Virus record (IMG/VR): IMGVR_UViG_3300033405_000003
Reading direction: 5' to 3' (one strand)
Source of the DNA: a virus
Lineage: Duplodnaviria > Caudoviricetes
DNA length: 64,000 nt
Positions within the stretch are counted from its first letter, which is position 1. The number at the start of each line of letters is the position of its first letter. A program made the position numbers and the translations under genes. This document shows positions 3,996-49,150 of this stretch, one piece after another. The notes beneath the pieces were generated by a model. That model did no database searches. It was given only the letters and a program-made list of their open reading frames with translations, and was not told the origin of the DNA.

Positions 3996-4790
3996 ATGGT
4001 TAGCGGCCTGCTGCTCCTCGCGCTGGCGGCGGCCCTCGCGATCCCCGCGGTCGTGCTCTGGCGCCGAGTCTTCGCGGGCGCCGCGATCCCCCACGAGCTG
4101 CGCGTGCCGGGGGCCGCGTCCGTCGACACCGCGGAGTGCCGGCTCGCGGTCCACGAGGCGGGGCACGCCGTCGCGGCGTGGTGCTGCACGCTGGTCTCCG
4201 AGGTCACAATCGCGACGATCGAGGCGAAGGACCGCGGCGCGGGATGGGACGGCGGCTTTGTGAACTACACCTACTACAGGACCTACTGGTCCTCGGGCGA
4301 CTGGTGCAAGATGGTCATCGCTCTCGCGGGCGTGGCAGCCGAGGCGCTCGTCTACTCGCGCTGGCGCTCGACGGGCTCCGAGCGCGACCTCCTCCAGGCG
4401 CTCGAGATCGCCGAGGGCCTGGTCGCCAAGGGCGCGGCCGAGCACATCCCGTGGCAGCGCCTCGGCGAGACGCCGGGCCGCGCGCCCGACCTCGGGAAGG
4501 CGTTCAAGACCAGGCCACCAGCCGCCGTCGCCGAGAACCTGAACGAAGGGTACCGGATGGCGCGGCACGTCCTCGGCTCCCACGGCGGGGCGTTCTTCAA
4601 GGTCGTCTCCATGCTACTTGCGAAGAAGAGCACGACGCGCGCCGACATGGAGCAGGTGCTCGGCAAGCGGCACTTCGAGCAGCTCGTCGCCCTCGGGGCG
4701 CAGCTCGAGAGCGTCGTGAACGAGTCGGGCAAGCCTGAGCACTTCAAGCCGAGGTTCGTGCTGCCGCTCCGCAGGAGGAAGGCCGCGTGA
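3996..4790 (+). CDS. membrane-anchored M41 (FtsH protease domain-like) zinc metallopeptidase without AAA domain
   Basis: N-terminal TM helix; AVHEAGHAV, LAGVAAEAL and GSERDL match the M41 HExxH/E/D signature. Confidence 0.8.
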   Translation: MVSGLLLLALAAALAIPAVVLWRRVFAGAAIPHELRVPGAASVDTAECRLAVHEAGHAVAAWCCTLVSEVTIATIEAKDRGAGWDGGFVNYTYYRTYWSSGDWCKMVIALAGVAAEALVYSRWRSTGSERDLLQALEIAEGLVAKGAAEHIPWQRLGETPGRAPDLGKAFKTRPPAAVAENLNEGYRMARHVLGSHGGAFFKVVSMLLAKKSTTRADMEQVLGKRHFEQLVALGAQLESVVNESGKPEHFKPRFVLPLRRRKAA

Positions 4791-8447: not shown

Positions 8448-8677
8448 TGGGTTACCAGATCCGATACACGGACAACCAGGGACGGGCCCGGGTGCACGAC
8501 TATCGCGGCTCGATCGCGGGCGCCGAAGGGTGGGCGCGCCAGCTCTCCAAGGACAACGGCGGCACGCGCGCCGAGGCCGTACATATCGCCGATACCCACC
8601 ACGACGCCGCGCCGCAGGGAACGGTGACCCACGTCATCACGGTGGGCGACGACGCGGTGCTCGGGAGGCCGAAGTGA
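8444..8677 (+). CDS. hypothetical protein
   Basis: Coupled ORF with RBS. Confidence 0.6.
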   Translation: MMGYQIRYTDNQGRARVHDYRGSIAGAEGWARQLSKDNGGTRAEAVHIADTHHDAAPQGTVTHVITVGDDAVLGRPK

Positions 8678-9483
8678 CGGAGCGAAAGGTCCGCCTTTTC
8701 CCGGAAGACCTCGCCAGCAAGCCAGAGTCGAAGAGCGATCCCATCGCGCTCATCGACCTCGACAGCACGGTGGCGGATTACGACAAGGCGCTTCGCGAGG
8801 TCATGCGCTCGCTCGAGGCGCCGAACGAGCCGGCGTACGCCGACCGTTACACGAACGGGGCCGAGCCCGCGTACATCGAGGCGCGCCGCAAGCTCGTCCA
8901 GCGCCAGCCTGGCTTCTGGCGGAATCTCGAGAAGATCCCGCTCGGTTTCGAGGTGGTGGATGAGCTTCGCCGGGCGGGCTTCAAGCTCCACGTGCTCACG
9001 AAGGGCCCGCAGAAGAACGGCGCGGCCTGGGGTGAGAAGCTCGAGTGGTCGCGCGAGCACCTGCCCGACGCGACGGTCACCGTCACCGGCGACAAGAGCA
9101 TCGTCTACGGCCGGGTGCTCGTGGATGATTTCCCGCCGTATTTCCTCGCGTGGCTCGCGAACCGCCCGCGGGGCCTCGTCATCTCGGTGGCCCACCCGTG
9201 GAACGAGGGGTTCAAGAAGGACGGCGCGCAGGCGCACCCGAATGTGCTCCGGTACGACGGCACCGACGTCATCGAGCTGCGCGAGGCGCTCCGCCGCGCG
9301 CGCGACCGCGAGTCCGGCGCGCCGCTCCACATGGCGGGCCCGCCGAAGGCTGGCCGTTGCGAGGCCTGCGACGGCAGCGGGCGGACGGAGCGCACGGACA
9401 TCCTGCCGGCCGGAGTGACGTGCCCGATCTGCAGGGGTACGGGGACCGTGCAGCCGGGCATGCAGTTCAGGGTGATGGGCTGA
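8674..9483 (+). CDS. HAD-family 5'(3')-deoxyribonucleotidase (NT5C-like) with C-terminal DnaJ-type Zn finger
   Basis: IDLDSTVAD, GFWRNL, VLTKGP, EKLEW, VLVDD, PWN; tail CEACDGSG...CPICRGTG. Confidence 0.8.
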   Translation: MTERKVRLFPEDLASKPESKSDPIALIDLDSTVADYDKALREVMRSLEAPNEPAYADRYTNGAEPAYIEARRKLVQRQPGFWRNLEKIPLGFEVVDELRRAGFKLHVLTKGPQKNGAAWGEKLEWSREHLPDATVTVTGDKSIVYGRVLVDDFPPYFLAWLANRPRGLVISVAHPWNEGFKKDGAQAHPNVLRYDGTDVIELREALRRARDRESGAPLHMAGPPKAGRCEACDGSGRTERTDILPAGVTCPICRGTGTVQPGMQFRVMG

Positions 9484-17673: not shown

Positions 17674-18174
17674 ATGCTCAAGAAGATCACGAAGGTCCTC
17701 GCCGTCGTCCTCGGCCTCTCGATCGTCCCCGCCGCCGGCGCGTGCTCGGCGTGGACGAGTTTCCTCCAGAACCCAGCGGGCGCGATCTCGACGCTGCTCC
17801 AGTACGTTCAGATCTTCCTCCAGACGGCAGCGGCGATCTGGGCGATCATCTTCCCGCTCATCCCCGCCGCGTCCCAGGCGCAGGCCCAGGCCGAATACGA
17901 GAACGCCGTCTACACGATCTCGCAGGGCGAGGCCGCGCTCGAGGACGCCATGAAGGCCGCAGCCGCGGCCGGGCAATCGAGCCCGAACTTCTCGCAGCTC
18001 ATCGCGAACATCCAGGGCGCGGTCGACGCGCTCGCCGGCATCATCAGCAAGTGGGGCGGAGGCAGCGCCCTCGGAGACGCGGGCACGCTCGCGACCGTCT
18101 CGCCCCGCGGGGCCACGGCCGCGCAGATGGCCGAGCTTGCGCGCGAGCAGGGCGTCATCCACGCGTGGAAATAA
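17674..18174 (+). CDS. putative lipoprotein, alpha-helical
   Basis: MLKKITKVLAVVLGLSIVPAAGA-C signal peptide with lipobox-like AGAC. Confidence 0.7.
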   Translation: MLKKITKVLAVVLGLSIVPAAGACSAWTSFLQNPAGAISTLLQYVQIFLQTAAAIWAIIFPLIPAASQAQAQAEYENAVYTISQGEAALEDAMKAAAAAGQSSPNFSQLIANIQGAVDALAGIISKWGGGSALGDAGTLATVSPRGATAAQMAELAREQGVIHAWK

Positions 18175-18212
18175 TCTCGCGCATAGACCGTGATTCAGAC
18201 CGAGGAGAGACC

Positions 18213-19598
18213 ATGCACAGGTGCCACAACTACCACCGCATCCACCCGCGCCTGCGCGGCGTCCGCCTCGGGGCCCGGGTCGCGAGGACGAGCTTCCCGA
18301 GCGGCACGCTCTCGCCCGCCGAGATCCTGACCGCGTACGGCTTCAAGCAGAACCAATTCGCCGGGATGGCGAAGACGCCGATCAAGCTCGGCGTGGGCAG
18401 CCTGGGCGGCGCGGTGGTGCAGGCCGACATCGACAACAGCGTCGCGGCGTGGGGGATGCTCGCCCCGAAGATCACCGTGCGCACCGTTGGCGGCGCGACG
18501 CAGGACCCGACTGATGCGGACTCCTGCACGGAGAACATGCTCGATCTTCTACCCACGATGGCCTTCACGTGGTGGTGGCTCACCGGCACCGCGGCGGATC
18601 TCACGATCTGCTTCGGGCCGAACGCGTCGAACGGCATGACGCTCGTGACGAACGATCTCGTCGCGGCAGGGTGCAAGGTCGCGAGCTGGTCGTGGGGCTC
18701 GGCCGCGGACCAGTGGGATCCGACGGAGCGCGCGGCGCTCGCCGCGGCGTTCCAAGCCGCAGCGCAAGCGGGCGTCACGTTCTGCGCGGCGGCCGGCGAC
18801 AACTCGATCGATGACGGCACGTCGTCCCCGTCGGCCGACTACCCGTGCTCGGACCCGTGCGTCTGGGCGGTGGGCGGCACGAACCTCCAGATCAACCCGG
18901 ACGGGAGCCGCGCCGGCGAGTCGGCGTGGGGCGACGGCCAGCCCGGCGACGAGGGCGGTGGCGGAGGATACGACCCGACCGTGCCTGTGCCGCCATACCA
19001 GCAGGGCGTGATCCCGGCGAGCGCCCCAGGTCGCGGCGTCCCCGACACCGCGGCCAACGCGGACCCGAATTCGGGGTGGCAGATGTCGGCCAACGGGAGC
19101 TGGACGGTCGTCGGGGGAACGAGCGCGTCCTCGCCGTTCACGGCCGCGCTCATCGCCGTCGCGAAGGCCGTCGGCGGAAACGCCGCGGGCCTCCTCACGC
19201 CCGCCATCTACGCGTCGCGCGCGACCGCGTTGAGCGACATCACGACAGGCTCGAACGGCGACCCGGCGGTTCCGGGGTGGGACCCGGCGACAGGACTCGG
19301 CTCGCCGAACGATGGTGGATTCATCGCGGCGCTCGGGAGCAGCGCCCCGGCGCCACCCACGCCGAACCCGCCGCCACCGAACCCGCCGCCGGCGCCGAAT
19401 CCACCGCCAGCCCCGAACCCGCCGCCAGCCCCGAACCCGCCGCCAGCGGCAAGCGTCCACAAGTACCAGGCGGTCGCATGGGCAGCGGAGGGCATCGCCC
19501 AGAACTGGCGTCCCGGCGCATCGCTCGCGAACGCGCAGAACTGGGCCGGCCAAGGACTCGCGCAGCGCTGGCCGCAAGGAGGCAAGAAGAAACCGTGA
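18213..19598 (+). CDS. S53 sedolisin/kumamolisin-family serine peptidase with Pro-rich linker and small C-terminal repeat domain
   Basis: ENMLD (Glu/Asp), SWSWG, AAAGD, AVGGT, RGVPD, GGTSASSP (catalytic Ser), DITTGSNG...GWDPATGLGSP (Ca site). Confidence 0.9.
   Translation: MHRCHNYHRIHPRLRGVRLGARVARTSFPSGTLSPAEILTAYGFKQNQFAGMAKTPIKLGVGSLGGAVVQADIDNSVAAWGMLAPKITVRTVGGATQDPTDADSCTENMLDLLPTMAFTWWWLTGTAADLTICFGPNASNGMTLVTNDLVAAGCKVASWSWGSAADQWDPTERAALAAAFQAAAQAGVTFCAAAGDNSIDDGTSSPSADYPCSDPCVWAVGGTNLQINPDGSRAGESAWGDGQPGDEGGGGGYDPTVPVPPYQQGVIPASAPGRGVPDTAANADPNSGWQMSANGSWTVVGGTSASSPFTAALIAVAKAVGGNAAGLLTPAIYASRATALSDITTGSNGDPAVPGWDPATGLGSPNDGGFIAALGSSAPAPPTPNPPPPNPPPAPNPPPAPNPPPAPNPPPAASVHKYQAVAWAAEGIAQNWRPGASLANAQNWAGQGLAQRWPQGGKKKP
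19361..19447 (+). repeat. imperfect 18-bp tandem repeat encoding (PNPPPA/P)x4-5
   Basis: ccgaacccgccgccagcc-type units. Confidence 0.8.
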
Positions 19599-28592: not shown

Positions 28593-28972
28593 TGGGCGAA
28601 ACTGACAAGCCCCAGATACTGCGCGTGAAGAGCATCGCGAGCGGCCGGAGCCTCGATCCCCGCATCCACGGCGAGTGCATCTCGCTCGTCGCGGACGTGG
28701 ACGACGAGGACGCGCACTTCATGATCCCGCAGGAGTCATGGGAGAAGATCGTGCGCAACGCCGACTGGTTCAGGGAGCCGCGCGCCCCAGAAGAGAAGAC
28801 ATATGCCCAGGACCTCGAGAAGACGCTCAAGGCCCACCGCGTGCTTGCGCGCAAATGCGCGCAGTGCGGCGGCGAGCTGGCGTACCCTGGCGCGATTTAC
28901 TGCGGCGCCGGCTGCACGGCGCGAAGCGAAGCGCATGAGCCGCTCGGGTTCAAGGACACGGAGCCGCGATGA
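28592..28972 (+). CDS. Zn-finger hypothetical protein
   Basis: CAQC...YCGAGC. Confidence 0.6.
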   Translation: MGETDKPQILRVKSIASGRSLDPRIHGECISLVADVDDEDAHFMIPQESWEKIVRNADWFREPRAPEEKTYAQDLEKTLKAHRVLARKCAQCGGELAYPGAIYCGAGCTARSEAHEPLGFKDTEPR

Positions 28973-29721
28973 GTTACCCCTTTCCCCACGAGCCGCCCAC
29001 CATCGAGCGACGCGGGCGCGAGGCGAGGTCCCGCTGCAAGTGCGACGAGTGCGAGCGGGAGGACGCCCGGGCGGTCGTCGTGTTCAACGTCGTCGCCGCG
29101 GGCTCGGAGGAGAACTACGACGGCACGCACTCGGTGTGCAGGCGCTGCCTCGAGAACGCGCTCGCCATGCTCAGCGACCCGGACCTCGTCAAGACGAGGA
29201 CGCCGCTCACGAACAGCGAGCACGCGGCGCGCAAGCTGGCGACGGAGGCCCACGGCTTCCAGAAGTACGACTCGGGCACGGAGCCCTACGTGGTCCACCT
29301 CGCCGAGGTGCGCGACGTGCTCGTCGAGTTCGGGTGGGGCGGCGACACGGAGCTGCTCGTCGCGGCGTGGCTTCACGACATCGTCGAGGACACGCGTGTC
29401 ACGAGGGCTTCGATCGAGGAGCAGTTCGGCGGGCGCGTCGGCAAGCTCGTGTGGTCCGTGACCGGCGAGGGCAAGACGCGCAGGGAGCGGAACGAGGACG
29501 CCTACGCGAAGATGGTCGAGCACCCGGACTCGATCATCCTGAAGCTCGCCGACCGCATCGCGAACGCGCGGGCCTCGAAGCAGACGAGCCCGGACGACCT
29601 CTTCCTGATGTACAAGTCCGAGCACGAAGCCTTCAAGGGGAGGCTCCACCCGGACAGCAGCCTCGTGCCGCGAAAGGACGCCATGTGGGTAACCCTGGAC
29701 CGCATCTACGGTGAGCCATGA
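28969..29721 (+). CDS. Mesh1/SpoT-like HD-domain small alarmone hydrolase with N-terminal Zn finger
   Basis: AHGFQ, EPYVVHL, AAWLHDIVEDT, FG..V..LV..VT, LKLADRIAN. Confidence 0.85.
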   Translation: MSYPFPHEPPTIERRGREARSRCKCDECEREDARAVVVFNVVAAGSEENYDGTHSVCRRCLENALAMLSDPDLVKTRTPLTNSEHAARKLATEAHGFQKYDSGTEPYVVHLAEVRDVLVEFGWGGDTELLVAAWLHDIVEDTRVTRASIEEQFGGRVGKLVWSVTGEGKTRRERNEDAYAKMVEHPDSIILKLADRIANARASKQTSPDDLFLMYKSEHEAFKGRLHPDSSLVPRKDAMWVTLDRIYGEP

Positions 29722-42296: not shown

Positions 42297-42569
42297 ATGA
42301 GAGTGGTACAGGACGACCTCTGGCTCTGCGACGACTGCACGATCTACGCGGTCAACGGCGACACGTCGGGCATCCCCGACGAGGACGAGAAGAGGGTCGT
42401 CAAGGGCGTGAACGCGCTCGGACCGCACCTCGTGCCCGACTTTGACTCGGAGACGGGCGAGGGCATGGAGGAGTTCTCGCGTACGACGTGCGACGGTTGC
42501 GGCACGCGCCTCGCCGGCGGCAGGCACCGCTTCGCGATCCTCGGGCCGGAGAAAAAGAGACGCCGTTGA
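42297..42569 (+). CDS. conserved phage Zn-binding protein
   Basis: GAGGAG RBS; CDDC...NGD...FS...CDGCGT.LAG.RH. Confidence 0.75.
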   Translation: MRVVQDDLWLCDDCTIYAVNGDTSGIPDEDEKRVVKGVNALGPHLVPDFDSETGEGMEEFSRTTCDGCGTRLAGGRHRFAILGPEKKRRR

Positions 42570-42608
42570 GGCTGGACTCCCGGCGCGCGAGCAGCTAGTC
42601 GAAGAACG

Positions 42609-42950
42609 ATGGCGGCGCGCGCCGAGGCCCTCGACTTCGTCCACCGCGTGCTCCGGTGCACCGTGCTCAAGGACCTCGAAGTCGCGGCTTTCTGGGCGTC
42701 GCCGGGCGTGGTGCACATCCACGCGAGGCACGCCTACGGCAAGTGGCAAACGGTGACCGTCACGGGGATCGATCGCGGCCTCGCGAGGAGTGAGAACGGC
42801 ACGCCCGTCACGGCCTCGGACGTCGCGATCCGGTTGAGGAACGCGCTCAAGGACAGGCCGCCCGACAGGCGCATCGGGCACGCCTGGAAAGCCGATCGGT
42901 TGAGACGGGCCGAGGCTGCCGCTGTTGATGACAAGGGCGAGCCGAGCTAG
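42609..42950 (+). CDS. hypothetical protein
   Basis: ORF with codon bias. Confidence 0.55.
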   Translation: MAARAEALDFVHRVLRCTVLKDLEVAAFWASPGVVHIHARHAYGKWQTVTVTGIDRGLARSENGTPVTASDVAIRLRNALKDRPPDRRIGHAWKADRLRRAEAAAVDDKGEPS

Positions 42951-42953
42951 GCT
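42925..42953 (+). promoter_or_regulatory. sigma70-like promoter for the tRNA-tmRNA unit
   Basis: TTGATG-N17-TAGGCT, ending 12 nt before the tRNA. Confidence 0.6.
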
Positions 42954-42965
42954 TCCCCTCGTTGA

Positions 42966-43039
42966 TGCGGACGAGTGGCGCGGTTCCATACAAGCCTCAT
43001 AAGCTTGTGAAGGCTCGGTTCGACTCCGGGTGTCCGCAA
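42966..43039 (+). tRNA. tRNA with CAT anticodon (Met or Ile2), atypical D-arm
   Basis: Acceptor (T)GCGGACG/TGTCCGC(A); anticodon arm CAAGC-CTCATAA-GCTTG; T-arm CTCGG-TTCGACT-CCGGG; short D-arm GTGG/CCAT. Confidence 0.8.
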
Positions 43040-43041
43040 CC

Positions 43042-43064
43042 GACGAGGGGATTCTCCCCTCGTC
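43042..43064 (+). other. perfect 10-bp hairpin between tRNA and tmRNA
   Basis: GACGAGGGGA-TTC-TCCCCTCGTC. Confidence 0.75.
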
Positions 43065-43068
43065 CCAC

Positions 43069-43446
43069 GGGCCTGAAATAGATTCGACGGCGAGAGGAGA
43101 TCCTGGTCAGCGTGCAGTGGCGCCCGCCCCACCCAAGCGGGCAACCGTAATTGCGAACGACAACGCAATCGCCCCGGCCGCGCAAGCAGCCTGAGCCGCC
43201 GTGCCGAGTAGGTGTTCCAGTACCTCGGCCGGTGTGAACCCGACGGGAGCTTGGCCACGGGGAGCGCTCGCGACCCATGGCGAGATCAAGCGGGCAGGAG
43301 CGCGCTCTCCCTAAACTGCGCTGGTGGAGGTAGCCGAGGCAACCCGGCATCCCCCTGTGTCGGTGCAGCCGATCATCCGACTACGCACGTAGAAGACTGG
43401 GAACAAGGCTCGGCGGACCCCGGGGCAGTACCGGGCAGGTCCACCA
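43069..43446 (+). ncRNA. ssrA: tmRNA (one-piece), tag (A)ANDNAIAPAAQAA*
   Basis: 5' GGGCCTG-AAATAGATTCGAC and 3' CAGGTCC-A-CCA with a G3-U70 pair; T-arm CCCGG-GGCAGTA-CCGGG; tag ORF at 43153-43194. Confidence 0.93.
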
Positions 43447-43474
43447 TGAAGAAGAGCGGCGGAAAGAGCAGAGC

Positions 43475-43669
43475 ATGAGCGCCGGCCACTGCTACAACCA
43501 GGCCAAGCACCATGAGAGCATGTCGCTCTGGCGCGGCCTGCACGCCGGGATGATCCCCTGCTACCGGGACAAGGCGCGGCACGCGATGTGGCGGTGGGGC
43601 CGGAAGAAGGGGTTACGGCGCGCGCGGCGGAGACTCGACCGCGACTTGTGCAAGTTCCCGGGCGAGTGA
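43475..43669 (+). CDS. small basic protein
   Basis: ORF coupled to the next gene. Confidence 0.5.
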   Translation: MSAGHCYNQAKHHESMSLWRGLHAGMIPCYRDKARHAMWRWGRKKGLRRARRRLDRDLCKFPGE

Positions 43670-44025
43670 TGGGCCCGTACCGGAGAAACACGCGCCGCGA
43701 GCCCGAGCCCGAGCACGAGCACAACGACATGTTCTCGGACCCCATCTCGTGTCCGAACTGCGCGGGGATGCGGCTCCTCGTCGGCATCCCGATCTTGTGC
43801 TTCGCGCTCGTGCAGCTCGGTTGGTGCAAACTCCCGCCCCCGCGCGAGTGTGAGCCGGGCGAGTGCGTGCGGCGCGAGGAAGATCACCTCTTCGCCCACG
43901 GCAACCGCGAGTGCCTCGAGTGGTGCCCGAAGCCGATCGAGGTCCGCCTCTCGCCCGAAGACCGCAAGCTCCTCGCGAATGTGATCGCGGAAGCCATCAA
44001 GGTGCCGCCGGACGCGGGGAGATGA
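43669..44025 (+). CDS. single-TM Cys-rich protein
   Basis: MGPYR start; hydrophobic helix; several Cys. Confidence 0.6.
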   Translation: MGPYRRNTRREPEPEHEHNDMFSDPISCPNCAGMRLLVGIPILCFALVQLGWCKLPPPRECEPGECVRREEDHLFAHGNRECLEWCPKPIEVRLSPEDRKLLANVIAEAIKVPPDAGR

Positions 44026-48141: not shown

Positions 48142-48417
48142 GTGTTCTGGCTCGCCTCCTACTTCCTCTGCGGCGTCTTCTGGTGGCTCGGCATGATCGA
48201 TTTCGCGGAGCATCGGGAAACCTGGGGGAGCTTGCGCGGCCCAGCGAGGAAGTCGGCCTACGTGGGCATCCAGTTCGTCTTCGGGATGCTGCTCTGGCCC
48301 GTTGGGATCGCCGGCTGGGCGATCACGAAGGGATTCTTCGGCAAGCGCGCCAAGGCGAACCTCGAGAGGAGCACGAATGATCTCACGAGGGAGCTGGACG
48401 AGCGCGACCGTCGGTGA
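48142..48417 (+). CDS. two-TM membrane protein
   Basis: Hydrophobic helices; LLWP. Confidence 0.6.
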   Translation: MFWLASYFLCGVFWWLGMIDFAEHRETWGSLRGPARKSAYVGIQFVFGMLLWPVGIAGWAITKGFFGKRAKANLERSTNDLTRELDERDRR

Positions 48418-48436
48418 CAGAGTCGCTGACGGCGAC

Positions 48437-49150
48437 ATGACGGCGAGCATCGAGGTCATCCGCGGCGACTGCTTCCACGTCGACCTCCGGGAGCACATCG
48501 GCAAGGTCGACCTCCTCATTTGCGACCCGCCGTACGGCGAGATCCTCGACGAGGAATGGGACCACGAGTGCTACGCCGGGCTCGGCCACCTCGCGGAGGG
48601 CCTACTCGCCGCCGGCGGCACGGCGTACGTGTGGGGCGGCGTCGGCACGCACAAGAACCGTCCGTTCTTCAAGTGGCTCGCGGCCGTCGAAGACCAGACG
48701 GACCTCCGCCTCCACAACCTCATCACGTGGGGCAAGAAGCGCGCGTACGGCGTGCAGACGAACTACCTCTTCACGCGCGAGGAGGTCGCGATGCTCGTGA
48801 AAGGGGACAAGCCCAAGACGTTCAACGTGCCGCTCCTAGACGAGCTTCGCGGCTACGCCGGCTACAACAAGAAGTACCCGGCCAAGAGCGCGTACAAGCG
48901 CCGCACGAACGTCTGGACCGACGTGACCGAGCTTCTGCGGGGCAAGATCCACAAGGCCGAGAAGCCGGCCAAGCTCGCCGAGATCATGATCAGGACCTCG
49001 AGCAGACCCGGCGACCTCGTCGTCGACCTCTTCGCGGGCTCCGGCTCGACGGGGGTCGCGGCCCTCGCGGTCGGGCAGCGGAGGTGCCTGCTCGTCGAGA
49101 AGAGCGGCTGCGCGATGCACGCGCTCGATGTATCTTCGGAGACCGGATGA
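48437..49150 (+). CDS. orphan beta-class N6A/N4C DNA methyltransferase
   Basis: GDC, DLLICDPPY, H..EKP..L, VVDLFAGSGSTG. Confidence 0.9.
   Translation: MTASIEVIRGDCFHVDLREHIGKVDLLICDPPYGEILDEEWDHECYAGLGHLAEGLLAAGGTAYVWGGVGTHKNRPFFKWLAAVEDQTDLRLHNLITWGKKRAYGVQTNYLFTREEVAMLVKGDKPKTFNVPLLDELRGYAGYNKKYPAKSAYKRRTNVWTDVTELLRGKIHKAEKPAKLAEIMIRTSSRPGDLVVDLFAGSGSTGVAALAVGQRRCLLVEKSGCAMHALDVSSETG

What the first reader, a model, noticed from the sequence alone, without database searches (positions are those of the whole stretch)
42925..43446. Element-encoded one-piece tmRNA with an alphaproteobacterial-type T-loop, downstream of a tRNA(CAT)
Seen: a promoter (TTGATG-N17-TAGGCT), a tRNA, a 10-bp hairpin, then a complete 378-nt tmRNA. 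It has a G3-U70 alanine acceptor, encoded CCA and tag ANDNAIAPAAQAA, sits among phage-type genes on both sides, and no smpB is in the window. Established: the GGCRGUA T-loop replacing TTCRANY is the hallmark of permuted two-piece alphaproteobacterial tmRNAs, yet this gene is unpermuted. Inference: the element supplies its own ribosome-rescue and degradation-tag RNA, possibly resistant to host nucleases or retuning proteolysis.
Basis: partly seen in the sequence, partly recalled or inferred. Interest (0 to 1): 0.82.

Follow-up and report, generated by a model that had tools for sequence, protein, structure and literature searches.

The report
Giant-phage tmRNA with variant T-loop
A roughly 219-kb uncultured virus from peat carries its own complete ribosome-rescue RNA (tmRNA). 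Its odd T-loop is an alternative design also used by Alphaproteobacteria, Saccharibacteria and many phages, so the gene is real and only mildly unusual.

Summary
Rfam's tmRNA model matches window 43069-43446 end to end (66.6 bits, cut-off 47). By eye it has a G3-U70 acceptor stem, an encoded CCA, a well-formed first pseudoknot and the tag ANDNAIAPAAQAA. ARAGORN misses it and reports only the upstream tRNA-like gene (CAT). The window shows no SmpB, no integrase and no change in composition, so this is the element's own gene, not a host attachment site.

The interpretation needs correcting. GGCRGUA is the alphaproteobacterial consensus T-loop (25 of 29 sampled genomes), but it is not exclusive to permuted genes. 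I found it in one-piece tmRNAs of 13 Saccharibacteria assemblies, one Myxococcales assembly and at least eight groups of viral and metagenome contigs. It always comes with a matching D-loop change (GG to AG).

Outside its tRNA-like end, this tmRNA is a standard one-piece molecule that looks most like Myxococcota tmRNAs. It is not a re-joined alphaproteobacterial gene.

Phage tmRNAs are already known. I rate this a new member of a known kind, of modest interest. An overlapping window of this scan noted the same stretch, and the scan has found other phage tmRNA variants on other DNA. Expression and function are untested.

The parts
42925..42953 (+). promoter-like pair of hexamers TTGATG-N17-TAGGCT upstream of the RNA genes
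   Evidence: Read from the sequence. The standard sigma-70 scan does not call it. The motif TTGAY-N16-20-TANNCT occurs 5 times in the window against 0.24 expected. Its function is inferred.
42953..42963 (+). leader strand UCCCCUCGUUG, which can pair with the trailer at 43042-43052 and clamp the tRNA-like gene on an 11-bp stem
   Evidence: Minimum-energy fold of 42940-43075: -59.1 kcal/mol, z -2.77, 0 of 200 shuffles as good.
42966..43041 (+). tRNA-like gene with anticodon CAT. It is non-canonical (G8, an extra base between the T and acceptor stems, no encoded CCA).
   Evidence: ARAGORN calls it tRNA-Met. The Rfam tRNA model gives only 21.6 bits against a cut-off of 29.
43043..43065 (+). 10-bp hairpin GACGAGGGGA-UUC-UCCCCUCGUC, ending 3 nt before the tmRNA 5' end. 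It cannot form at the same time as the leader/trailer stem. No U-run follows it.
   Evidence: No terminator-like site was found in 42500-43800.
43069..43446 (+). one-piece tmRNA (ssrA), 378 nt
   Evidence: Rfam RF00023: 66.6 bits, full length, E 9e-24.
43069..43088 (+). 5' acceptor strand GGGCCUG plus the D-loop region AAAUAGAUUCGAC, of the 'AG-NN-UCGAC' type
   Evidence: the AG D-loop goes with the GGCRG T-loop in 161 of 170 unique tmRNAs. (acceptors starting GGGC: 18 of 93 viral against 1 of 94 bacterial).
43117..43142 (+). pseudoknot 1: stem GUGG/CCAC (4 bp) interleaved with stem GCCCGC/GCGGGC (6 bp), ending 10 nt before the resume codon
   Evidence: Read from the numbered sequence. It matches the PK1 design described in PMC1168896. 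Its closest relative is G101 of the Myxococcota.
43153..43194 (+). tag reading frame ANDNAIAPAAQAA plus the UGA stop
   Evidence: The 22-mer covering the resume region and tag start is identical in 6 of 401 Myxococcota genomes.
43419..43446 (+). T arm CCCGG-GGCAGUA-CCGGG, 3' acceptor strand CAGGUCC and ACCA
   Evidence: The same 32 nt occur in viral locus L043, a permuted gene.

Best explanation
This is a genuine standard (one-piece) tmRNA gene belonging to a large virus-like element from peat.

Proposed mechanism, all steps inferred:
- It is transcribed with the upstream tRNA-like gene from a phage promoter.
- Host RNase P and 3' processing enzymes cut it out.
- Host AlaRS charges it with alanine through G3-U70.
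- Host SmpB and EF-Tu deliver it to stalled ribosomes.
- The ribosome switches to the tag frame and adds ANDNAIAPAAQAA, marking the unfinished protein for host proteases and freeing the ribosome.

The likely benefit is to keep translation running during infection. The same genome also carries a large tRNA set and other translation-repair genes (earlier scan notes, not tested here).

Its tRNA-like elbow uses the alternative paired design: D-loop AG instead of GG, and T-loop GGCAGUA instead of UUCRANY. That design is the rule in Alphaproteobacteria. It has also arisen or spread in Saccharibacteria, in one Myxococcales assembly and in many phage tmRNAs.

Outside the tRNA-like ends, the resume region and tag start, PK1 (close in one genome, G101) and a helix-2 motif resemble Myxococcota tmRNAs, the likely source and host group. 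The pseudoknot region after the tag has no recognisable relative.
For: - Model match: full-length covariance-model match above the curated cut-off.
- Functional elements in register: G3-U70, ACCA, the UCGAC and GGAC elbow motifs, a 4+6-bp PK1 ending 10 nt before a GCG resume codon, a 13-codon tag ending in AA, and a stop.
- Position: internal to a uniform block of about 150 + strand genes at 67% GC, with no integrase or recombinase family among 150 proteins. The same contig was assembled identically in four peat runs.
- Elbow design is coupled: a GGCRG T-loop goes with AG-NN-UCGAC in 161 of 170 unique tmRNAs, and UUCRA goes with GG-NN-UCGAC in 48 of 49.
- One-piece tmRNAs with this loop exist elsewhere. 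Rfam calls L237, L139, L164, L137, L188 and L087, and scripts classify more.
- Five viral records that carry such genes have no SmpB, two of them at least 97% complete. This fits reliance on the host protein.
- Body is Myxococcota-like: the best hit outside the tRNA-like domain is G101, 78% over 74 nt. G101's tag is ANDNAIALAA. The 22-mer is exact in 6 of 401 Myxococcota genomes, while the best of 108 alpha tmRNAs has 3 mismatches. The helix-2 motif CUACGCACGUAG occurs in 21 of 41 Myxococcota tmRNAs and 0 of 108 alpha ones.
- Phage tmRNAs are documented: 402 phages, 2.3% of genomes (PMC9004378), and 79 unique sequences (PMC11915505).
Against: - No transcript, processing, charging or tagging data exist.
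- I could not fetch DNA of this element's relatives, so there is no conservation or covariation test for this particular gene.
- The Rfam score (66.6 bits) is low for a tmRNA. Alignment confidence is poor across the PK2-PK4 region, so those pseudoknots are unverified.
- The source lineage is not resolved by a tree. The AU test does not reject grouping the window with alpha tmRNAs (p 0.47).
- The nearest Myxococcota tmRNAs have canonical elbows, so how the variant elbow and this body came together is unexplained.
- Only 64 kb of about 219 kb could be searched for smpB.
Confidence: 0.75

Rival explanations
1. Decoy or competitor. The RNA binds host SmpB, or otherwise occupies the rescue pathway, mainly to block or divert the host's own trans-translation. 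Useful tagging would be secondary. The tag-less tRNA-like RNA of mycobacteriophage DS6A is reported to act this way.
For: PMC11915505 reports that the CDS-less tmRNA form of phage DS6A inhibits endogenous tmRNA when expressed in E. coli. The elbow and the GGGC acceptor differ from every sampled bacterial relative of the body. Tag-less mini forms with the same T-loop exist in viral contigs L035 and L045.
Against: This gene keeps a well-formed PK1, correct spacing to the resume codon, an intact tag frame with a proteobacterial-type ANDN start and AA end, and a stop codon. A pure decoy would not need any of these.
Confidence: 0.1
2. Re-joined alphaproteobacterial tmRNA. The gene descends from a permuted two-piece alpha gene that was re-permuted into one piece, as reported for the mitochondrial tmRNA of Jakoba libera. 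The host would then be an alphaproteobacterium.
For: The T-loop GGCAGUA and the AG D-loop are the alpha consensus. The tag ending APAAQAA resembles the APVAQAA of Rhodoplanes roseus locus L340. The AU test does not reject a window-plus-alpha clade (p 0.47). A re-permuted mitochondrial gene is mentioned in PMC11915505.
Against: - With the T arm and 3' acceptor left out, no alpha locus among 108 gives a BLAST hit at E below 0.05.
- The alpha-type acceptor-piece sequence is absent. The standard helix-2 motif CUACGCACGUAG is present instead; it occurs in 0 of 108 alpha tmRNAs.
- The permuted-tmRNA model gives only a sub-threshold hit of 32.8 bits. It is built from the upstream tRNA's T arm plus the tmRNA 5' half, whose acceptor strands are not complementary.
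- The same elbow occurs in non-alpha one-piece tmRNAs.
Confidence: 0.06
3. Decaying or non-functional copy. A captured host ssrA is drifting in the phage genome and is no longer used.
For: The Rfam score is low compared with 110-220 bits for bacterial tmRNAs. The PK2-PK4 region aligns poorly. No relatives could be compared.
Against: Every element whose loss would inactivate a tmRNA is intact (acceptor, G3-U70, CCA, T arm, the coupled D/T loops, PK1, frame, stop). The D-loop and T-loop changes are the coordinated pair seen in working lineages, not random decay. Other phage tmRNAs also score 60-100 bits.
Confidence: 0.06
4. Host ssrA at a prophage or assembly junction. The tmRNA would belong to the bacterial chromosome and serve as the attachment site.
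For: tmRNA genes are frequent integration sites (PMC11915505).
Against: - The gene lies about 75 kb inside a contig of about 219 kb, with the same gene style, strand and GC on both sides.
- No integrase family is found in 64 kb.
- Neighbouring genes have homologues only on other very large contigs.
- The contig is identical in four runs, with no alternative junctions.
Confidence: 0.03

Closest known systems
Standard one-piece bacterial tmRNA (SsrA; Rfam RF00023)
   Same: Gene order, acceptor stem with G3-U70 and ACCA, T arm, UCGAC/GGAC elbow motifs, PK1 before the resume codon, an ANDN...AA tag, and a standard helix 2.
   Different: The T-loop is GGCAGUA instead of UUCRANY, the D-loop is AG instead of GG, and the acceptor starts GGGC instead of GGGG. 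The score is low and ARAGORN does not detect it. It is encoded by a virus-like element.
Alphaproteobacterial two-piece (permuted) tmRNA (Rfam RF01849 / RF04321; Caulobacter, Keiler et al. 2000 as cited in PMC1168896)
   Same: T-loop GGCRGUA and D-loop AG-NN-UCGAC. The tag starts ANDN.
   Different: The gene is not permuted. It has no alpha-type acceptor piece, its helix 2 and PK1 are of the standard type, and no alpha locus resembles the body.
Phage-encoded tmRNAs (one-piece in mycobacteriophages and others; two-piece in marine phages such as Melnitz, PMC9004378)
   Same: A virus-borne ssrA without smpB, often next to tRNA genes.
   Different: It combines the one-piece layout with the variant elbow. 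There is no match in 50,697 deposited phage records, either for this gene or for two other members of the class.
One-piece tmRNAs of Candidatus Saccharibacteria, and of one Myxococcales assembly (CAZBFJ010000086.1), with a GGCAGUA T-loop, found here
   Same: One-piece layout with the AG/GGCAGUA elbow. Rfam RF00023 calls them (L164 95.5 bits, L188 65.8, L237 138.6).
   Different: They are cellular genes with GGGG acceptors. The Saccharibacteria ones are low in GC and form their own clade. The Myxococcales tmRNA has the tag ANDNSFALAA and is only about 53% identical overall.
Tag-less tRNA-like tmRNA form of mycobacteriophage DS6A (PMC11915505)
   Same: A phage RNA built on the tmRNA tRNA-like domain.
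   Different: The window gene keeps the whole mRNA-like and pseudoknot body.

Membership tests
tmRNA, standard form (RF00023) | Covariance-model score at or above the curated gathering score over the full model | tested here: met
   66.6 bits against 47, model positions 1-374 of 374.
tmRNA, standard form (RF00023) | 7-bp acceptor stem with G3-U70, discriminator A and 3' CCA | tested here: met
   GGGCCUG / CAGGUCC-A-CCA, read.
tmRNA, standard form (RF00023) | T arm of 5 bp with a 7-nt loop of canonical sequence UUCRANY | tested here: not met
   The arm geometry is met (CCCGG/CCGGG, 7-nt loop) but the loop is GGCAGUA. This is the alternative loop of alpha tmRNAs and co-varies with the D-loop. 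Variant loops occur within accepted tmRNAs, so this does not exclude membership.
tmRNA, standard form (RF00023) | Pseudoknot 1 just upstream of the resume codon | tested here: met
   Interleaved stems of 4 and 6 bp at 43117-43142, ending 10 nt before GCG at 43153. The design is as described in PMC1168896.
tmRNA, standard form (RF00023) | Short tag frame that starts at an alanine codon, ends in a hydrophobic Ala-rich C-terminus and is followed by a stop | tested here: met
   ANDNAIAPAAQAA followed by UGA.
tmRNA, standard form (RF00023) | Pseudoknots 2-4 downstream of the tag | tested here: inconclusive
   Model alignment confidence is low across 43250-43374. My single-sequence stem enumeration is ambiguous in this GC-rich RNA. 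No relatives were available for covariation.
tmRNA, standard form (RF00023) | Works with SmpB, is charged with alanine and tags stalled proteins | not testable with these tools
   No smpB in the window. No RNA run holds the stretch.
Alphaproteobacterial two-piece tmRNA (RF01849 / RF04321) | Circularly permuted gene: the acceptor piece ending in CCA lies upstream of the 5' acceptor strand and coding piece | tested here: not met
   The 5' strand lies 355 nt upstream of the T-loop. The RF04321 hit of 32.8 bits is below its cut-off of 47, and it pairs the tRNA's T arm with a non-complementary tmRNA 5' strand.
Alphaproteobacterial two-piece tmRNA (RF01849 / RF04321) | T-loop GGCRGUA with D-loop AG-NN-UCGAC | tested here: met
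   GGCAGUA and AGAU-UCGAC.
Alphaproteobacterial two-piece tmRNA (RF01849 / RF04321) | Sequence kinship of the body with alpha tmRNAs | tested here: not met
   With the T arm and 3' acceptor left out (query positions 1-340), no alpha locus gives a hit at E below 0.05. The helix-2 motif occurs in 0 of 108. The best 22-mer match has 3 mismatches. The tree and AU test are uninformative.
Host ssrA used as an integration site | Integrase next to the gene and a switch from element genes to host genes at the tmRNA | tested here: not met
   No integrase or recombinase family among 150 window proteins. Composition and gene style are uniform on both sides.

The most novel reading that the evidence does not exclude
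The tRNA-like end of this RNA may belong to a phage-specific tmRNA module. Its features are an acceptor starting GGGC (here GGGCCUG), the D-loop A-A/C-A-U/C-AGAUUCGAC and the T arm CCGGG-GCAGUA-CCGG.

This module would move between phages of very different GC content and between one-piece and permuted gene layouts, while the mRNA-like body is taken from, or adapted to, the current host. The elbow lacks U54 and U55, the positions that are modified in the E. coli tmRNA T-loop (my own knowledge). It could therefore let the phage RNA work without host T-loop modification, or escape host factors that control or attack the host's own tmRNA. That would give phages a privately controlled rescue-and-tagging channel.
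Probability: 0.15. Interest if true: 0.6.

Novelty: new member of a known kind. Interest (0 to 1): 0.35.

Why it matters
- Annotation. One-piece tmRNAs with the alternative elbow went undetected by ARAGORN in all ten loci I tested (eight phage, viral or metagenome-assembly loci and two Saccharibacteria) and in this window. Surveys that rely on ARAGORN, including counts of phage tmRNAs, probably undercount them.
- RNA design. The strict pairing of the D-loop change (GG to AG) with the T-loop change (UUCRANY to GGCRGUA), seen in several unrelated lineages, gives a clean natural test of an alternative tRNA-elbow design that SmpB and the ribosome accept.
- Host. The Myxococcota-like tag and PK1 give a testable host lead for a very unusual giant virus-like element.

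None of this changes what tmRNA is understood to do.

Tried and rejected
**Relatives of this element**
Homologues of the neighbouring 482-aa protein sit on contigs of 279, 172, 160 and 132 kb, but I could not inspect them for a syntenic tmRNA.
- Protein-based searches of IMG/VR found no relatives.
- No deposited phage matched, by DNA or protein.
- The metagenome pattern scan returned 11 loci, none a close relative.

**Expression and variation**
- No RNA holder is listed among public runs; there are six peat DNA runs only.
- Laying contigs of four runs showed no variants, so no covariation could be read.

**Ideas tested and dropped**
- The sub-threshold permuted-tmRNA model hit at 42979-43194 (32.8 bits) is rejected. 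It joins the tRNA's T arm to the tmRNA 5' half, and their acceptor strands cannot pair.
- Origin by phylogeny failed. The trees leave the window unresolved and the AU test does not reject an alpha grouping (p 0.47).
- Single-sequence search for PK2-PK4 was ambiguous.
- The consensus promoter and terminator scan found nothing in 42500-43800.

**SmpB**
- None in the window and none in five other viral records. The rest of this genome could not be searched.

**Caveat on data**
- One unpublished genome (G144, locus L356) sits in the alpha sample. It was excluded from the T-loop count, the AU-test tree and the acceptor-stem count. No claim depends on it.
Full report
**1. Is it there?**

Yes. Rfam's standard tmRNA model (RF00023) matches window 43069-43446 on the + strand over all 374 model positions. 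The score is 66.6 bits against a curated cut-off of 47, with E 9e-24.

Read from the sequence and my numbering of it, the RNA has:
- a 7-bp acceptor stem GGGCCUG/CAGGUCC with G3-U70, discriminator A and an encoded CCA;
- the conserved UCGAC and GGAC elbow motifs;
- a 5-bp T stem with the 7-nt loop GGCAGUA (43424-43430);
- an H-type pseudoknot at 43117-43142, with stems GUGG/CCAC and GCCCGC/GCGGGC and 1-nt, 1-nt and 4-nt connectors. It ends 10 nt before the resume codon, the design described for PK1 in PMC1168896;
- a tag frame at 43153-43194 that reads ANDNAIAPAAQAA and then a stop.

ARAGORN does not report the tmRNA. It reports only tRNA-Met(CAT) at 42966-43041. A standard sigma-70 scan does not call that promoter. 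A looser motif, TTGAY-N16-20-TANNCT, occurs five times in the window against 0.24 expected, so it may be this element's promoter type. That is inference.

**2. Whose gene is it?**

The window holds about 150 short, tightly packed genes, nearly all on the + strand, at an even 67% GC. Only 17 Pfam families are recognisable among 150 predicted proteins. None is SmpB, an integrase or a recombinase. tblastn and a small SmpB profile also find nothing.

The neighbouring 482-aa protein has homologues only on other very large contigs of up to 279 kb. The window's own contig is 218,816 bp. Four peat metagenome runs hold the stretch on identical contigs with no alternative junction.

Earlier notes of this scan describe the genome as a linear, phage-like element of about 219 kb, with about 42 tRNA genes, Ro60 with Y RNAs and a Pth2-like gene. 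I did not test those notes.

The tmRNA lies about 75 kb inside this element. It is the element's own gene, not a host ssrA at an attachment site.

**3. Is GGCRGUA really the alphaproteobacterial hallmark, and is it exclusive?**

I drew 40 alphaproteobacterial genomes evenly with the permuted-tmRNA model and read 29 T-loops:

| T-loop | Genomes |
|---|---|
| GGCAGUA | 13 |
| GGCGGUA | 12 |
| GGCGGAA | 2 |
| GGCAGAG | 1 |
| GGCAGUG | 1 |

It is not exclusive.

Sorted by script, they fell into:
- 76 permuted genes; every one whose record names a group below phylum is alphaproteobacterial, and a few records say only Proteobacteria/Pseudomonadota;
- 14 true one-piece genes: 13 from Candidatus Saccharibacteria assemblies and one from an assembly labelled Myxococcales (L237).

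That Myxococcales assembly has no other tmRNA. The gene's contig carries ordinary chromosomal genes: RHS, RCC1, GH88 and SDR families. None of the 40 relatives has a tmRNA-type GGCRGUA end. In the even sample of 100 genomes of its phylum, every T-loop I could read (about 50) is canonical.

In IMG/VR, 122 of 162 pattern-matched loci are permuted. One-piece genes with this loop fall into seven sequence groups: L001 and six near-copies, L008, L087, L137, L138, L139 with L143, and L152. Many sit on contigs of 80-235 kb. There are also two tag-less mini forms, L035 and L045.

Rfam confirms L237 (138.6 bits), L139 (96.1), L164 (95.5), L137 (86.4), L188 (65.8) and L087 (63.5) as standard tmRNAs. L001, L008, L138 and L152 stay below the cut-off. 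ARAGORN missed every one-piece example I gave it, yet it called a permuted one, L043.

**4. The elbow is a coupled design.**

Across all unique tmRNAs collected:
- a GGCRG-type T-loop goes with a D-loop of the form AG-NN-UCGAC in 161 of 170;
- the canonical UUCRA loop goes with GG-NN-UCGAC in 48 of 49.

The window has AGAU-UCGAC with GGCAGUA, so it is a coherent member of the alternative class. By analogy with tRNA elbows, where the D-loop GG contacts positions 55 and 56 of the T-loop, this looks like a compensated change of the D-loop/T-loop contact. That is inference.

Five viral records that carry such one-piece genes have no smpB. They include a complete 181-kb genome and a 97%-complete 235-kb one. 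The alternative elbow is therefore presumably read by host SmpB.

**5. Where does this particular tmRNA come from?**

When the T arm and 3' acceptor strand are left out (query positions 1-340), the only significant BLAST hits among about 370 loci are to the phylum of L237, Myxococcota. The best is G101, at 78% over 74 nt covering helix 2, PK1 and the start of the tag. Further points:
- G101's tag is ANDNAIALAA, against ANDNAIAPAAQAA here.
- The 22-mer UUGCGAACGACAACGCAAUCGC is identical in 6 of 401 sampled Myxococcota genomes and within one mismatch in about nine more. Among 108 alpha tmRNAs the best match has three mismatches.
- The helix-2 motif CUACGCACGUAG is present here, in 21 of 41 Myxococcota tmRNAs and in 2 of 13 tmRNAs from other phyla. 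It is in none of 108 alpha or 100 viral permuted genes.
- Mean local-alignment scores of the body are 49 for Myxococcota, 37 for alpha and 38 for the 13-phylum panel.

High GC may inflate some of this, and the trees do not resolve the question. The window falls in an unsupported position between the alpha and standard groups. An AU test does not reject joining it to the alphas (p 0.47).

My reading is as follows. The molecule is a standard-type tmRNA. Its helix-2 motif, PK1 and tag start most resemble a Myxococcota subgroup, and it carries the alternative elbow. It is not a re-joined alpha gene. The permuted-model hit at 42979-43194 (32.8 bits, below the cut-off) merely joins the upstream tRNA's T arm to the tmRNA 5' half, and those strands cannot pair.

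**6. A phage flavour of the tRNA-like domain.**

The acceptor stem starts GGGC (C4-G69), whereas nearly all bacterial tmRNAs start GGGG. Among tmRNAs with GGC-type T-loops, after removing near-duplicates, GGGC occurs in 18 of 93 viral loci and 1 of 94 bacterial loci (Fisher p 1.6e-5).

Two metagenome one-piece tmRNAs, with 44% and 63% GC and unrelated bodies, have almost the same tRNA-like ends as the window (L332, L336). A permuted viral gene (L043) shares its last 32 nt exactly.

This hints that a phage-associated tRNA-like module persists or moves while the body changes. It is the most novel reading the data allow, but it rests on short conserved sequences.

**7. The upstream RNA.**

The tRNA-like gene (CAT) scores only 21.6 bits with the Rfam tRNA model, below the cut-off of 29. 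It has G8, an extra base between the T and acceptor stems, U1-A72, and none of the three G-C pairs that mark an initiator's anticodon stem.

Its flanks can form two structures that exclude each other:
- UCCCCUCGUUG (42953-42963) pairs with CGACGAGGGGA (43042-43052) in an 11-bp stem stacked under the acceptor stem;
- alternatively, the same trailer pairs with UCCCCUCGUC (43056-43065) to give the local hairpin, which ends 3 nt before the tmRNA.

No terminator follows either RNA. I infer that tRNA-like gene, tmRNA and downstream genes are co-transcribed and separated by processing. In other viral contigs a tRNA sits 4-17 nt upstream of the one-piece tmRNA (L138, L008), which fits that picture.

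**8. Comparison with what is known, and verdict.**

Phage-encoded tmRNAs are established. PMC9004378 counts them in 402 of 18,146 phage genomes, with 133 distinct forms, 53 of them two-piece. PMC11915505 lists 79 unique phage sequences. PMC1168896 notes U-to-G changes in the T-loops of Caulobacter and a mitochondrion.

What is added here:
- this gene is real and intact;
- the alternative elbow is not tied to the permuted layout or to Alphaproteobacteria;
- it co-varies with the D-loop;
- ARAGORN overlooks this one-piece variant, and it has no match among deposited phage genomes;
- the tag and PK1 point to a myxobacterial host.

Function, expression, the later pseudoknots and conservation in relatives remain untested. 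I file it as a new member of a known kind, with modest interest.

Noticed in passing
window 42953-43065: The tRNA-like gene (CAT) is bracketed by a direct repeat, UCCCCUCGU (42953-42961 and 43056-43064). ACGAGGGGA lies between the copies. This allows two mutually exclusive helices: an 11-bp leader/trailer clamp under the acceptor stem, or a 10-bp hairpin ending 3 nt before the tmRNA. It may be a processing switch.
   Followed up: partly
window 43134-43173: In two of four peat runs, a second contig of 13.6 kb (depth about one ninth of the element's) matches the resume and tag-start region at 36 of 40 bases and then diverges. It may be another tmRNA in the same samples, from the host or from a related element. 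Its sequence was not retrievable.
   Followed up: no
window 3996-4790: A 264-aa protein matches only the protease domain of FtsH (Peptidase_M41, E 7e-12) and has no ATPase domain. From my own knowledge, FtsH is one of the proteases that degrade ssrA-tagged proteins in E. coli, so a link to the tmRNA is conceivable. It is untested.
   Followed up: no
window 28969-29721, 8674-9483, 18165-19598, 48377-49150, 128-769: Recognisable enzymes in an otherwise orphan gene block: an HD_4 (RelA/SpoT-type hydrolase-like) protein, NT5C nucleotidase with a zinc-ribbon tail, a subtilase, an N6/N4 DNA methylase and an Rv2525c-like glycoside-hydrolase-like protein. One search also reports RNA ligase 1 (RLIG1), an Rv2179c-like 3'-5' exoribonuclease and PadR somewhere in the window. 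I did not locate those three.
   Followed up: no
L237 / L315 (CAZBFJ010000086.1, tmRNA at L315 17469-17826, - strand): An assembly labelled Myxococcales has, as its only tmRNA, a one-piece gene with the GGCAGUA T-loop and the tag ANDNSFALAA. It lies on a chromosomal-looking contig. None of its 40 relatives has a tmRNA-type GGCRGUA end, and the roughly 50 T-loops I could read in an even sample of 100 genomes of its phylum are all canonical. Either this one lineage switched its elbow, or it acquired the gene.
   Followed up: partly
L035 3612-3682 (+) and L045 21-101 (-): Two viral contigs carry 71-81-nt tRNA-like mini tmRNAs with the GGCAGUA T-loop and no tag region. In L035 it lies near a tRNA cluster. 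They recall the tag-less form reported for mycobacteriophage DS6A.
   Followed up: no
L001 8822-8929 (+): Directly after the CCA end of the L001 tmRNA-like gene, Rfam calls the Rhizobiales sRNA Atu_At1 (64.1 bits, cut-off 60). The L001 group's tmRNA-like genes themselves stay below the Rfam tmRNA cut-off and would encode unusually long tags (19-28 residues).
   Followed up: no
L138 1-486 (-): The complete 181-kb viral genome that carries a one-piece variant tmRNA-like gene inside a 21-tRNA array also encodes a ROOL RNA (RF03087, 215 bits).
   Followed up: no
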